A stretch of 64,000 nucleotides of DNA from Octopus sinensis (taxonomy: Eukaryota), in NCBI RefSeq assembly GCF_006345805.1, contig NC_042999.1, positions 77,624,001 to 77,688,000 of the forward strand, written 5' to 3'. Positions 57,182 to 62,217 of this stretch are shown one piece after another; position 1 is the stretch's first letter, and each line of letters starts with the position of its first letter. Made by a program: the position numbers and the translations under genes. The notes under the pieces are model-generated. The model made no database searches. It had not been told where the DNA came from and was given only the letters and a program-made list of their open reading frames with translations.

Positions 57182-57325
57182 GGTGATGTACTCACATAGC
57201 AAGTGATTTGATCTGAGATCGTGTGCTGAAACAAAAACAATTGCAGCGTGTTTGTAAGCAGGTGTTTGTAAGCCATTTAAGAAACACACAAAAGCCGTTC
57301 GATTCACTTCAACATTTAAGTTTAA

Positions 57326-57375
57326 TTTGTCAAAATATTTTCGTCGCTAAAATCCGCGACCTGTTCACTGACAAA
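57326..57375 (-). ncRNA. Hammerhead ribozyme variant with swapped G3:C8 core pair
   Basis: tttgtca-GTGAACA-g-gtcgc(ggatttta)gcgac-GAAA-atat-TT-tgacaaa: perfect 7-bp stem I, 5-bp stem II, palindromic AATATT stem III. Confidence 0.7.
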
Positions 57376-57426
<51 letters not shown>

Positions 57427-57427
<1 letters not shown>

Positions 57428-57828
57428 GTGGAAAAAAGTCAAGATAGAAAATGTTAAAATGATTTTATAAAAAACATTTCAGTACCGCTTTCAGTCATTG
57501 AGACTTTTTCAACTGTAAGTATGGAAAACAATTAAATTTTGAAAAAAATTAAAAGAAAAGTTTTTAAAAGAATAATTGCATAGTATTCAAATACAAGGGC
57601 CTCGAACCCACAAGAGTAAACAAGGGAGACAGAGACAGGCGGAAACAAGGAAAATACCCCTTGTATTTGAATACTATGCAAATATTTTTTTCAAAAAATT
57701 TTCTTTTAATTTTTCCAAAATTTAATTGTTTTCCATACTTACAGTTGAAAAAGTCTCAATGACTGAAACCGGTACTGAAATGTTTTTTATAAAATCATTT
57801 TAGCATTTTCTACCTTGACTTTTTCCAC
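57427..57828. mobile_element. Fold-back element (~170-bp arms) with outward-facing U3:A8 hammerheads
   Basis: Plus 57742-57777 is cag-TTGAAAA-agtc(tcaat)gact-GAAA-ccgg-TA-ctg; mirror copy at 57480-57515(-); flanked by (TG)n/(CA)n. Confidence 0.8.
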
Positions 57829-57859
57829 ATATATGAACTCGTGTATTCCTTTTCAACCT

Positions 57860-57913
<54 letters not shown>

Positions 57914-58987
57914 CACACACACATCTGTGTTTACCAGTAGAGAGGATGGGAATTTGTCGTCCCTAGCATGAGTGTTTCTTCCATCAGGACCAAAAGAAAG
58001 AAGAAAGAACCGGATTTAGGTACTGTATTTATATATGTTGCAAAGCTGGACGTAGGCCGGAGAACAATTGGGAGTAAAAGAGTTTATCGCTGTTGAGCTT
58101 TATTTAACCCAAGAATGTCCACTTAAACTATAGAACTCTATTGAGTGTGACAGTTGACTCTCATGCATTTCAGAAAGAGGATAATAATAAGATACTCGTA
58201 GAAAGGTCTAGACTGGGTTTCGAATGTTAACTAAGAATCTAGGAAACTATTCGTTACACATGTATGGTGGGTAAAGGGATGCTTACACAAGTTAGACACT
58301 AAGCTAGCGCTTGGTCTGGTTAAATTCTTAAAAGCAAAAGCAGATAAGTTGGCAAGAAGAAAATGTTAAAGGTGTATATCTTTGCGCGTTACATATATAG
58401 ATGCGAATGAAAAAATATATATGCGTGTGTAAATATATAATGAATATATAATTACAATCGTAAATTTATATTAATTGATGCTTATAAATTTGTCAACATT
58501 ATTTTCATGCGCCCATCTTTTGTCTTTTTCGTACAAACATACGTACGTATATATATATACACACCTACATAAATTTACACAACACTGCGTATACGAGAAA
58601 ATCTAAAATAAAGATAAATCTTAAATAGTTAAACTACGTTTTTTTAAAGCGTTTTGAAATGCCATGTTCAAATTTAAATAGGCGATGATGATGTTGGATT
58701 TCGAAATGAACTATCAAACGGAGTATGGATTTTAATGATGAGAAATACGTCAGCTGTACACTCTCAATAGATAGTGAGTTTATGTTTTATGGAGTTGATC
58801 GTATTGGACTGTTACAAGCATAGTTGTGACAAGTTCCAACAAGATAAGAATATCATACGGAACATATTCTTTTATTGCTTCTTTTACTTGTTTCAGTCAT
58901 TAGACTGCACCACCTCGAATAATTTTAGTCGAACGAATCAACCCCAGTACTTATTAATGCTTGTAAAGCATCTTTAAAATGCTGACA

Positions 58988-59266
58988 CTACGTCCGACTT
59001 TGCAACATATATAAATACAGTACCTAAATCCGGTTCTTTCTTCTTTCTTTTTTGGTCCTGGTGGAAGAAACACTCATACTAGGGACGACAAATTCCCATC
59101 CTCTCAACTGGTAAACACAGATGTGTGTGTGTGTGTGTGTGTGTGTAGAAGGTTGAAAAGGAACACACGAGTTGATATATGTAGAAAAAAAGTCTAGATA
59201 GAAAATGCTAAAATAATTTTATAAAAAACATTTCAGTACCGGTTTCAGTCATTGAGACTTTTTCAA
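58988..59266 (-). repeat. Inverted duplicate of 57745-58055 carrying a third U3:A8 hammerhead core (59234-59266)
   Basis: The reverse-complement match includes the (CA)n tract and flanking unique sequence. Confidence 0.85.
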
Positions 59267-59776
59267 ATACACACACACACACGCTGGGCTTCTTTCAGTT
59301 TCCGCCAACCAACTCCACTCGTAAGGCTTTGTTCGGCCCGAGATATAGTGGAAAACACCCAAGGTGCTACGCAGTGGGACTACCCGGAACCATGTAGTTG
59401 GGGTGGGGAGAAAACTTTTTACTACACAGACACGGTATGCCGTTTGATTATCAAGTTGCCTATAAGTGTCAGCATTTTAAATATTTATAGGCTTTTAAAA
59501 GTCATTTAAATAAAAATCCAAAAGTACTTTTGGCACGCCACGATCAGACAAATCCGTTGACAGATGTGCGATTTATAAAATCATTCCATGATGTGTACGT
59601 TATTACACAAATATACACGCACAAGCACATGCACGTGCACAAACATATGCACACCTGTGCGTGTAGATGCATGTGCGTGCGTATGTGTGGGTGCTTGTGT
59701 GTGTTTGTGCATGCGTATGTATGTGTGTGTGTGTGTATGTGTATTTATCGAAGTGTACAGTATTATATATACATTA

Positions 59777-62070: not shown

Positions 62071-62217
62071 GATTACATTCGTTAGCGCTTTCGAATCAAG
62101 GATCCTTCATCAGACGTGTGTGTATGTGTGTGTGCACGCGCGTGTGCTTGTGAGTGTATATTTGTGAAATAATGTCTGATGAAAGATCCTTGATCCGAAA
62201 ACGCTAACGAATGCAAA
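62071..62217. ncRNA. Outward-facing pair of minimal hammerheads around a (TG)n spacer
   Basis: 62080-62116(-) is cgt-CTGATGA-a-ggatccttgattc-GAAA-gcgc-TA-acg; 62173-62209(+) is tgt-CTGATGA-a-agatccttgatcc-GAAA-acgc-TA-acg. Confidence 0.8.

What the first reader, a model, noticed from the sequence alone, without database searches (positions are those of the whole stretch)
57427..57828. U3:A8 hammerhead pair in a fold-back element
Seen: cag-TTGAAAA-agtc-tcaat-gact-GAAA-ccgg-TA-ctg, only 36 nt, lies in both arms, with a third core at 59234. All three keep U3/A8, although they are local duplicates and not independent evidence. With the C3:G8 and G3:C8 motifs, three of the four possible Watson-Crick pairs at 3:8 occur within 2.5 kb.
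Basis: partly seen in the sequence, partly recalled or inferred. Interest (0 to 1): 0.75.

Follow-up and report, generated by a model that had tools for sequence, protein, structure and literature searches.

The report
Penelope retrotransposon tail with variant hammerhead
This "fold-back" is two broken, back-to-back copies of the tail end of a Penelope-like jumping gene, and each carries a small hammerhead-type RNA motif with an already published base-pair swap (U3:A8) that is predicted, not shown, to cut its own RNA when two copies pair up.

Summary
The 36-nt motif is real: + 57742-57777, the only strict-descriptor hit in the window and absent from 200 shuffles. Only the right-arm copy is complete. 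The left-arm copy has a broken palindrome, and the third lacks the 5' strand of helix I.

The "fold-back" is not an element of its own. It is two head-to-head, 5'-truncated copies of the 3' UTR of a Penelope-like retrotransposon (PLE), inserted in a microsatellite with a 30-nt tail at one end. The inner junctions differ among 15 such loci. Long copies carry RT-thumb and GIY-YIG remnants upstream.

A younger subfamily has G10.1:C11.1 where the window has A:U. A second, autonomous PLE lineage (781-aa RT + GIY-YIG ORF) keeps a U3:A8 core in an alignable 3' module, with all three helices changed but still paired (47 of 47 cells).

So this is most likely a genuine PLE minimal hammerhead of the published U3:A8 type. 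Cleavage is untested. RNA-seq reads cross the predicted site without ends, Rfam does not call the window copy, and the window copies are dead remnants.

It is a new member of a known kind. The scan has already noted U3:A8 Penelope-type hammerheads on other DNA, including two other pieces of this genome.

The parts
57383..57432 (.). (TG)n / (TATG)n microsatellite flanking the insertion on the left
   Evidence: Read directly from the sequence. Family copies are usually flanked by (TA)n or (CA)n.
57433..57599 (-). Left arm: inverted, 5'-truncated copy of the PLE 3' UTR end (family A), without a tail
   Evidence: Inverted repeat I1. BLAST of the 232-nt unit gives q66-232, 94.6% identity, minus strand.
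57480..57515 (-). Left-arm hammerhead-like motif. U3:A8 is kept, but helix III reads AGCGGU, so the palindrome is broken.
57600..57826 (+). Right copy: 5'-truncated PLE 3' UTR end (family A). Positions 57600-57657 form the unpaired 'loop' of the fold-back.
   Evidence: Homologous to the 3' UTR downstream of RT/GIY-YIG remnants in L046 and L085.
57742..57777 (+). Intact minimal type-I hammerhead-like motif. Helix I is CAG/CUG and the core is U3-UGAA-A8-A9. Helix II is AGUC/GACU with loop UCAAU, followed by GAA. Helix III is the palindrome ACCGGU and H17 is A. The predicted cut lies between 57774 and 57775.
   Evidence: single hit in the window; 0 hits in 200 shuffles; covariation with other lineages. 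Cleavage is predicted only.
57835..57864 (+). 30-nt 'tail' extension (GAACTCGTGTATTCCTTTTCAACCTTCTAC), present at the right end only
   Evidence: Present in 7 of 17 aligned copies and absent from the other 10. It matches the 30-40-bp one-sided tail described for PLE insertions (PMC8557442, passages).
57865..57925 (.). (CA)n microsatellite flanking the insertion on the right
59145..59269 (-). Third copy: the last ~85 nt of the same PLE 3' end plus its tail (59145-59174). It is truncated inside the motif (motif remnant 59234-59269).
   Evidence: Direct repeat D7, 95% to the left arm, and inverted repeats I7 and I8; sequence.
57195..57382 (-). Neighbouring short element of another repeat family. 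It carries a G3:C8 hammerhead-like motif (57328-57373) and abuts the same microsatellite.

Best explanation
The 36-base motif lies in the conserved 3' end of a Penelope-like retrotransposon (PLE) and has the layout of that group's minimal type-I hammerhead with the published U3:A8 swap. It is predicted to cut its RNA after GUA (between 57774 and 57775) only when two copies pair through the ACCGGU palindrome.

Shown:
- The window's 'fold-back' is two 5'-truncated copies of a PLE 3' UTR, joined head to head, inserted in a (TG)n/(CA)n microsatellite, with a 30-nt tail on one side.
- The repeat has thousands of copies.
- Long copies continue upstream into RT-thumb and GIY-YIG coding remnants.
- A sister autonomous PLE lineage keeps the same core in an alignable 3' module, with different but still paired helices, and has it on both sides of its ORF.

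Inferred (from the published model for PLEs):
- In a transcript of tandem copies, or between transcripts, two motifs form a double hammerhead through helix III.
- Each cuts 3' of A17.
- This trims read-through RNA to a unit-length template for target-primed reverse transcription by the RT-endonuclease.

At this locus nothing of that is expected to happen. The copies have no ORF and face each other. Only one motif is intact. A transcript spanning both arms would fold into a 167-bp hairpin that buries the motif.
For: Motif significance:
- One strict-descriptor hit in the window, against 0 hits in 200 dinucleotide shuffles.

PLE context:
- The own-genome search gave 3317 first-look candidates, of which 40 were scored, yielding 88 matches.
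- In 15 fold-back loci the inner ends of the two arms range from q1 to q81 and mostly differ from locus to locus.
- The 30-nt tail is present in 7 of 17 aligned copies, and most copies are flanked by (TA)n or (CA)n.
- L046 (family A) has ORF remnants upstream with 65% and 53% aa identity to residues 486-604 and 640-775 of a 781-aa PLE ORF.
- That 781-aa ORF has RVT_1 (28.9 bits) plus a C-terminal GIY-YIG (27.7 bits, cut-off 22.6).
- L085 (family B) has a GIY-YIG fragment and the ORF end about 760 nt upstream of the motif.
- These traits match published PLE insertion structure (PMC8557442, passages).

Covariation:
- Subfamily B (1272 candidates; scored copies 97-100% alike) has G10.1:C11.1 where family A has A:U.
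- Among 88 copies, 10.1:11.1 is G:C in 44, A:U in 36 and other in 8. The 3:8 pair is U:A in 81 of 88.
- A second PLE lineage carries ATTT-TTGATAA-GGTTC..GAACC-GAAA-CATG-TA-AAAT at about 70 nt from its 3' end. It was found in 7 of 30 GIY-YIG loci and in L114-L117. In L116 it lies on both sides of the ORF.
- The 3' modules of both lineages align by MAFFT. On that alignment 47 of 47 cells pair and 5 of 10 pairs change on both sides. Slid controls pair at only 26-45%.

Other support:
- The subfamily B motif hits Rfam Hammerhead_HH9 at 20.9 bits, E 0.0048, in a 201-nt search.
- The same genome has canonical PLE-type hammerheads: 7 RF00163 matches above the cut-off among 74 scored.

Literature:
- U3-A8 covariation occurs in natural hammerheads, and such variants were active in vitro (PMC3088659, passages).
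- A U3-A8 variant occurs in Schistosoma mansoni Cercyon PLEs, about 1300 hits, where a short palindromic helix III implies dimers (PMC4209133, passages).
Against: - No cleavage data exist for this motif.
- Rfam gives no hammerhead hit for the window copy. This holds at gathering score, at E<=10 over 8 kb, and at E<=10 over 141 nt. The subfamily B hit is far below the gathering score (20.9 against 52 bits).
- The window copy has A10.1:U11.1, whereas G10.1-C11.1 is listed as highly conserved in real PLE minimal hammerheads. [quoted passage not shown]
- Helix I is only 3 bp. Helix III cannot form within one molecule.
- In three raw RNA-seq runs, reads on both strands cross 57774/57775 with no pile-up of ends and no joints. 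These were 91, 67 and 35 reads, none 99% alike, so they probably come from related copies or a related species.
- None of 29 further copies starts at the predicted cut. Their 5' ends are spread from unit position 17 to 398, while the predicted cut product would start at about position 405.
- Within family A the motif decays like its flanks: 6.1% against 5.6% and 6.6% substitutions. Individual copies are therefore not under selection.
- The rows were found partly with a descriptor that demands pairing, and they represent only two lineages, so the independent compensatory events are few.
- Published PLE minimal hammerheads cleave poorly in vitro even as dimers (PMC4209133).
Confidence: 0.7

Rival explanations
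1. The motif descends from a hammerhead but no longer cuts. It would be kept as part of a 3'-terminal RNA module that the PLE reverse transcriptase recognises or primes on, so pairing and sequence are conserved for binding rather than catalysis.
For: - The terminal block GCATTTTC..TTTTT.CA(AT)n downstream of the motif is conserved between lineages as strongly as the core.
- No read ends at the predicted site.
- None of 29 copies starts there.
- Helix I is weak, and the window copy has A10.1:U11.1.
- PLE minimal hammerheads have low activity in vitro (PMC4209133).
Against: - All eleven core positions, the A15.1:U16.1 pair and H17 are kept in two lineages whose proteins are only 53-65% identical. 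A binding hairpin would not need that.
- The 3:8 positions keep a Watson-Crick pair, the very feature that catalysis needs.
- The palindromic helix III is kept while its sequence changes (CCGG to CAUG).
Confidence: 0.2
2. It is a chance look-alike. An AT-rich repeat happens to match a relaxed hammerhead descriptor, and its many copies merely repeat one accident.
For: - The three local cores are copies of one repeat.
- The descriptor was relaxed after the fact (any Watson-Crick pair at 3:8, helix III without a loop).
- Rfam does not call the window copy.
- With the relaxed descriptor, 21 of 200 shuffles of 98 kb gave at least one U:A-type hit.
Against: - The strict descriptor gave 0 hits in 200 shuffles of 64 kb on both strands.
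- A second PLE lineage has the same core at the same place in an alignable 3' module, with different paired helices.
- There is a compensatory change at 10.1:11.1 between subfamilies.
- PLE ends are the published home of such motifs (PMC4209133).
Confidence: 0.04
3. It is a fold-back or MITE-type DNA transposon whose terminal inverted repeats happen to contain the motif. The arms would be transposase binding sites and the variable forms would be internal deletions.
For: - The arms are long and inverted.
- In at least 9 of 29 subfamily B loci the same ~2.3-kb inverted structure with the same centre recurs.
- Many single 'half' copies exist.
Against: - Upstream of long copies lies an RT-thumb plus GIY-YIG ORF in the same orientation, not a transposase.
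- Copies share a fixed 3' end and variable 5' ends.
- No target-site duplication is visible at the window copy.
- The one-sided 30-nt tail and the microsatellite targets are PLE traits.
Confidence: 0.03

Closest known systems
Minimal hammerheads in the pseudo-LTRs of Penelope-like elements, including the U3-A8 variant of Schistosoma mansoni Cercyon (Cervera and de la Pena 2014, PMC4209133; passages read)
   Same: - Type-I layout with a very short palindromic helix III that implies action as a dimer.
- Located in the terminal repeat region of an RT + GIY-YIG element, on both sides of the ORF in L116.
- Many scattered single motifs from truncated copies, and motif pairs on opposite strands 100-700 bp apart.
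- U3-A8 in place of C3-G8.
   Different: - The host is a different animal genome and a different PLE family.
[quoted passage not shown]
- The window's subfamily has A10.1:U11.1 instead of the conserved G:C.
- Helix I is only 3-4 bp.
Natural U3:A8 core covariants of hammerheads (Perreault et al. 2011, PMC3088659; passages read)
   Same: The C3:G8 core pair is replaced by U3:A8 while the rest of the core is kept. That paper states such variants had been shown active in vitro.
   Different: I did not check which organisms and elements those examples come from. Here the swap is fixed in whole retrotransposon lineages.
Newt and axolotl type-I hammerheads and animal non-LTR retrozymes (Cervera and de la Pena 2020, PMC7229834, passages; Li et al. 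2026, bioRxiv 10.64898/2026.07.22.740005, abstract only)
   Same: A short helix III, better cleavage as dimers, and a proposed origin as non-autonomous derivatives of PLE pseudo-LTRs.
   Different: Retrozymes are head-to-tail tandem repeats of 170-400 nt expressed as circular RNA. The window holds inverted copies, not tandem ones. No back-joined reads were seen.
Rfam Hammerhead_HH9 (RF02275) and Hammerhead_1 (RF00163)
   Same: Subfamily B aligns to HH9 over core, helix II and its A-rich loop (20.9 bits). The same genome has RF00163 hits above the cut-off.
   Different: The window copy reaches no hammerhead model at E<=10. The subfamily B score is far below the gathering score of 52.

Membership tests
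Hammerhead ribozyme (type I, minimal PLE form) | Core nucleotides U4 G5 A6 N7 A9, G12 A13 A14, the A15.1:U16.1 pair, and H17 not G | tested here: met
   All are present at 57742-57777. They are kept in subfamily B and in the second PLE lineage.
Hammerhead ribozyme (type I, minimal PLE form) | Watson-Crick pair between positions 3 and 8 (C:G, or a covariant) | tested here: met
   U:A in 81 of 88 copies and in 5 of 5 rows of alignment A4. This is the published covariant (PMC3088659, PMC4209133).
Hammerhead ribozyme (type I, minimal PLE form) | Helices I and II supported by compensatory change | tested here: met
   47 of 47 cells paired and 5 of 10 pairs changed on both sides. Caveats: only two lineages, and the rows were partly chosen by a pairing descriptor.
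Hammerhead ribozyme (type I, minimal PLE form) | G10.1-C11.1 closing pair of helix II | tested here: not met
   The window copy has A:U. Subfamily B and the second lineage have G:C. Among 88 copies the pair is G:C in 44 and A:U in 36.
Hammerhead ribozyme (type I, minimal PLE form) | [quoted passage not shown] | tested here: not met
   Absent in family A, family B and the second lineage. Present in the neighbouring G3:C8 and C3:G8 motifs.
Hammerhead ribozyme (type I, minimal PLE form) | Short palindromic helix III | tested here: met
   ACCGGU in 67 of 88 copies. ACAUGU in the second lineage.
Hammerhead ribozyme (type I, minimal PLE form) | Score at or above the gathering score of an Rfam hammerhead model | tested here: not met
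   No hit for the window copy. Subfamily B scores 20.9 bits against 52. No hammerhead hit at E<=1 in 14 PLE loci.
Hammerhead ribozyme (type I, minimal PLE form) | Site-specific self-cleavage 3' of H17 | tested here: inconclusive
   - No pile-up of read ends at 57774/57775 in 3 of 3 RNA runs, at low depth and from related copies only.
- None of 29 copies has its 5' end at the predicted cut.
Penelope-like element (endonuclease-positive) | Single ORF with a reverse transcriptase and a GIY-YIG endonuclease | tested here: met
   - Sister lineage L116: 781 aa with RVT_1 at 28.9 bits (just under its 29.6 cut-off) plus a C-terminal GIY-YIG at 27.7 bits.
- Family A/B: only degraded remnants were found, at 53-65% aa identity to that ORF. 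No intact master of family A/B was found.
Penelope-like element (endonuclease-positive) | 5' truncation, inverted 5'-truncated partner copy, one-sided 30-40-bp tail, microsatellite targets (PMC8557442) | tested here: met
   The window copy shows all four traits.
Animal non-LTR retrozyme | Head-to-tail tandem units, each with a hammerhead, expressed as circular RNA | tested here: not met
   The window copies are inverted, not tandem. No joints were seen in the RNA reads.
Fold-back / MITE DNA transposon | Fixed terminal inverted repeats with a target-site duplication and a transposase-coding master | tested here: not met
   Junctions vary. No duplication is visible at the window copy. The upstream ORF is RT/GIY-YIG.

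The most novel reading that the evidence does not exclude
Retroelements with Penelope-type insertion footprints in this one genome carry minimal hammerheads with three different Watson-Crick pairs at the catalytic 3:8 position.
- C:G occurs in canonical families and at window - 62080-62116.
- U:A occurs in two related PLE lineages with thousands of copies.
- G:C occurs in the short family beside this finding, in 28 of 29 distinct copies.

My searches found no report of G3:C8 in nature. If all three cut, the genome is a natural neutral network across the core pair of a ribozyme, ready for side-by-side kinetics.
Probability: 0.3. Interest if true: 0.55.

Novelty: new member of a known kind. Interest (0 to 1): 0.3.

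Why it matters
The finding adds a very abundant animal PLE lineage to the short list of natural hammerheads with the U3:A8 core swap. It does so with comparative support: two lineages, compensatory changes, and a conserved 3' module.

It also explains a recurrent 'fold-back' repeat as the ordinary scar of Penelope insertion.

It does not change what is known about hammerheads or PLEs. The useful by-product is a set of natural core-pair variants (C:G, U:A, G:C) in one genome that could be assayed together.

Tried and rejected
Ideas dropped:
- tRNA-derived SINE. The minus strand of the 'loop' has a B-box-like GGTTCGAGGCC. I dropped this once RT/GIY-YIG remnants were found upstream of long copies. 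No tRNA scan was run.
- Fold-back element amplified as one unit. Rejected for family A because the junctions differ. It stays open for the ~2.3-kb inverted form of subfamily B.

Searches that led nowhere:
- Looking for the family A unit 3' of 30 GIY-YIG loci gave only incidental matches in L064 and L057.
- Rfam E-value scan of 14 PLE loci gave no hammerhead at E<=1, only microsatellite-driven miRNA look-alikes.
- The look-up of sequencing runs listed no RNA holder.
- Read laying on the second lineage's 3' end (L116:6120-6455) laid 0 reads in 3 runs, so it is no test.
- Earlier scan notes by place and by sequence gave nothing for this stretch.

Limits of method:
- RNAcofold of two motif copies gives -19.5 kcal/mol against 2 x -6.1. 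It cannot draw a true double hammerhead, which is knotted in its notation, so this shows only that dimerisation through ACCGGU is favourable.
- MAFFT alignment A3 split helix II and was not used. In A1 the G3:C8 and window C3:G8 rows were misaligned.

Literature:
- Lunse, Weinberg and Breaker on PLE hammerhead dimers (PMC5785218) is not held. I know it only from the reference list and text of PMC6765202.
- Searches for a natural G3:C8 hammerhead found only a bench variant, mentioned as data not shown in PMC3884650.
- Supplements of the cited papers were not opened. The supplementary figures of PMC4209133 may show further U3-A8 families.

Full report
**What is there.** The window lies in a 2.72-Gb animal genome of 13,516 contigs.

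At 57433-57599 and 57658-57824 there is a 167-nt inverted repeat, 92% complementary, with a 58-nt spacer.

- any Watson-Crick pair at 3:8;
- helix I of at least 3 bp;
- helix II of at least 4 bp;
- a loop-free 4-nt helix III;
- A15.1:U16.1, and H17 not G.

It finds this motif once in the window on both strands and never in 200 dinucleotide shuffles.

The other two 'cores' are damaged:
- The left-arm copy (- 57480-57515) has AGCGGT for ACCGGT.
- The third copy (- 59234-59269) is cut off inside the motif and has no 5' strand of helix I.

**Rfam.** Rfam finds no hammerhead in the window at gathering score. It also finds none at E<=10 in 8 kb or in the 141 nt around the motif.

**What the fold-back is.**

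The 392-nt stretch is a high-copy repeat: 3317 first-look candidates, 40 scored, 88 matches. Copies come in two forms:
- single 'halves' (spacer plus one arm, 93-95% identical to the window);
- fold-backs.

In 15 fold-back loci, including the window, the inner ends of the two arms lie anywhere between positions 1 and 81 of the 232-nt unit, and they mostly differ from locus to locus. The fold-backs therefore arose many times. They are not copies of one fold-back element.

All copies share the outer end, ...CTTGACTTTTTTCCATATATAT.
- In 7 of 17 aligned copies a 30-nt 'tail' follows. In the window it is on the right side only, at 57835-57864.
- Most copies are flanked by (TA)n or (CA)n.

Longer copies run upstream through an internal (CTT)n tract into coding remnants.
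- In L046 (family A) two open stretches are 65% and 53% identical to residues 486-604 and 640-775 of a 781-aa ORF.
- In L085 (subfamily B) a GIY-YIG fragment and the ORF end lie about 760 nt upstream of the motif.

The following traits are the published signature of Penelope-like elements (Craig et al. 2021, PMC8557442, passages):
- a fixed 3' end with variable 5' truncation;
- an inverted 5'-truncated partner copy;
- a one-sided 30-40-bp tail;
- microsatellite targets;
- an RT-GIY-YIG ORF.

The genome is full of such elements: GIY-YIG gave 5029 candidates, and 147 of 150 scored matched.

The motif sits about 50 nt before the end of the element body.

**Is the motif more than a look-alike?** Three observations say yes.

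1. Compensatory change within the family.
- A younger subfamily B (1272 candidates; scored copies 97-100% alike) reads CAG-TTGAAAA-GGTC-TCAAAAT-GACC-GAAA-CCGG-TA-CTG.
- The helix II closing pair is G10.1:C11.1 where the window has A:U. This is a change on both sides.
- Among 88 copies the pair is G:C in 44, A:U in 36 and something else in 8.
- The 3:8 pair is U:A in 81 of 88, and ACCGGT is intact in 67 of 88.
- C11.1-G12 is a CpG, so C to U is an easy first step and G to A restores the pair. That order of events is inference.

2. A sister autonomous PLE lineage.
- It carries ATTT-TTGATAA-GGTTC...GAACC-GAAA-CATG-TA-AAAT downstream of its ORF. It was found in 7 of 30 GIY-YIG loci and in L114-L117.
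- By comparison of L116 with L117, it lies about 70 nt before the 3' end.
- In L116 it lies on both sides of the ORF in the same orientation.

3. The 3' modules of the two lineages align without any structural guidance (MAFFT).
- The core and a terminal block, GCATTTTC..TTTTT.CA(AT)n, are shared. The spacer between them is not.
- On that alignment 47 of 47 cells pair and 5 of 10 pairs change on both sides: all three pairs of helix I, the 10.1:11.1 pair, and the inner pair of the palindrome.
- Sliding the partner by 1-3 columns drops pairing to 26-45%.

Further points:
- A ten-row alignment that adds canonical hammerheads of this genome shows 3:8 as U:A in 6 rows and C:G in 4, with helix II 92% paired.
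- Subfamily B reaches Rfam Hammerhead_HH9 at 20.9 bits (E 0.0048 in 201 nt, gathering score 52). The alignment runs through the core, helix II and its A-rich loop.
- The genome also has canonical PLE-type hammerheads (GTAC-CTGAAGAG-ACCC..GGGT-CGAAAC-ATGT-GTC-GTAC). RF00163 gave 7 matches above the cut-off among 74 scored.

**Cautions.**
- The second-lineage rows were first found with a descriptor that demands pairing.
- Only two lineages are compared, so the number of independent compensatory events is small.
- With my relaxed descriptor a U:A-type hit turns up by chance in 21 of 200 shuffles of 98 kb. The strict descriptor gave none.
- Within family A the motif has decayed like its flanks: 6.1% against 5.6% and 6.6%. 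This is expected for dead copies and says nothing about the master.

**Evidence on activity.** There is none in favour.
- Three raw RNA-seq runs of 2026 laid 91, 67 and 35 reads on 57593-57862, on both strands. None was 99% alike, so they come from other copies or a related species.
- Depth runs through 57774/57775. The tool lists no place where molecules begin or end, and no joints.
- The second lineage's 3' end drew no reads at all, which is no test.
- Among 29 further copies retrieved with the part downstream of the predicted cut, 5' ends range from unit position 17 to 398. None lies at the predicted cut product's first base, about position 405.
- In the monomer, ViennaRNA predicts helices I and II with an open core (-6.1 kcal/mol). 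Helix III cannot form.
- Two copies together reach -19.5 kcal/mol through ACCGGU:ACCGGU.
- The whole fold-back folds into one hairpin of -215 kcal/mol that buries the motif.

**How it most likely works.**

Shown: it is a PLE 3' module with a hammerhead core and maintained pairing.

Inferred from the published model (Cervera and de la Pena 2014, PMC4209133; review PMC6765202):
- PLE transcripts that run through tandem or neighbouring copies bring two motifs together.
- The palindromic helix III pairs between them, and each core cuts after H17.
- The RNA is thereby trimmed for reverse transcription at a microsatellite nick made by the GIY-YIG endonuclease.

The window's copies are fossils of that process. 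They have no ORF and face each other, and only one motif is intact.

**Comparison with what is known.**
- Perreault et al. 2011 (PMC3088659, passages) report that C3 and G8 covary to U3 and A8 in several natural hammerheads, and that such variants had been shown active in vitro.
- Cervera and de la Pena 2014 report a U3-A8 variant in Schistosoma mansoni Cercyon PLEs (about 1300 hits), motifs in both flanking repeats, pairs on opposite strands 100-700 bp apart, and weak cleavage even as dimers.
- The present case is therefore a new member of a known kind.
- It departs from their list of typical features in two ways. [quoted passage not shown]
- It is not a retrozyme in the strict sense, because there is no tandem array and no circular joints (PMC7229834, passages).
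- A search for 'hammerhead ribozyme' plus 'octopus' found 5 papers, of which 4 were listed. By title and abstract start, none of the 4 describes hammerheads of such a genome.
- Earlier notes of this scan already hold 148 findings with the words hammerhead, Penelope, U3 and A8 in at least 12 genomes. Two are on other pieces of this genome. None is on look-alike DNA of this stretch.

**Beside the finding.**

The (TG)n tract left of the fold-back also borders, on the minus strand, a short element of another family (177 candidates).
- Its copies begin about 14 nt before a motif TGTCA-GTGAACA-G-GTCGC..GCGAC-GAAA-ATAT-TT-TGACA.
- The motif has G3:C8, a bulged G after A9, G10.1:C11.1 and the palindrome AAUAUU.
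- G:C is kept in 28 of 29 distinct copies.
- The family shows head-to-head inverted partners, an optional ~55-nt tail and (TA)n flanks.
- I found no report of a natural G3:C8 hammerhead in three searches.

A C3:G8 minimal motif abuts a (CA)n tract at - 62080-62116.

Each is the end of a different Penelope-type insertion into a microsatellite.

**Verdict.** The finding is a new member of a known kind, of modest interest.

Noticed in passing
window 57195-57382 (-), motif 57328-57373: A short repeat family (177 first-look candidates) whose copies begin about 14 nt before a hammerhead-like motif with G3:C8. The motif has a bulged G after A9, G10.1:C11.1 and the palindrome AAUAUU. G:C is kept in 28 of 29 distinct copies. 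The family shows head-to-head inverted partners, an optional ~55-nt tail and (TA)n flanks. I found no published natural G3:C8 hammerhead.
   Followed up: partly
window 62080-62116 (-): A canonical-core (C3:G8) minimal hammerhead-like motif, CGT-CTGATGA-A-GGAT..ATTC-GAAA-GCGC-TA-ACG, starting directly at a (CA)n tract. It is probably another 5'-truncated Penelope-type insertion.
   Followed up: no
window 57745-58055 and 58988-59266: A local inverted duplication, 96-97% complementary. It covers the last 80 nt of the PLE copy, its tail, the (CA)n tract and about 130 nt beyond. The inner part (57926-58200) is itself an old repeat (65 candidates, 70-80% identity). How the duplication arose is unexplained.
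   Followed up: partly
L085 and at least 9 of 29 subfamily B loci (L087, L090, L091, L094, L095, L099, L100, L106, L111): The same ~2.3-kb inverted structure recurs: two PLE 3' parts facing each other across the same 185-nt centre inside the GIY-YIG coding region. An inverted dimer may itself have been amplified as a unit.
   Followed up: partly
L116 1-1653 and 5934-7591: A 1.66-kb direct repeat, 99.3% identical, flanks the 781-aa PLE ORF. It extends about 1.1 kb beyond the PLE 3' end as defined by comparison with L117. It is either a long pseudo-LTR or a tandem duplication of element plus flank.
   Followed up: no
L044 7703-7761; also L039 and L050: A canonical C3:G8 type-I hammerhead, ATAA-CTGAAGAG-...-CGAAAC-TCGGA-GTT-TTAT, belonging to yet another repeat family. 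It lies about 250 nt upstream of a family A copy.
   Followed up: no
L113 7878-7938: A C3:G8 hammerhead-like motif with a 6-bp helix I and a stable hairpin helix III (TCGG-GT-CCGA). Unlike the palindromic minimal forms, it could act as a monomer.
   Followed up: no
window 57593-57862, RNA runs X21-X23: Reads lie on both strands at similar depth, and none is 99% alike. Several 'other letters' are fixed in all reads (for example 57641 G>A and 57656 A>G). This fits transcripts of other family copies or of a related species rather than of this locus.
   Followed up: no
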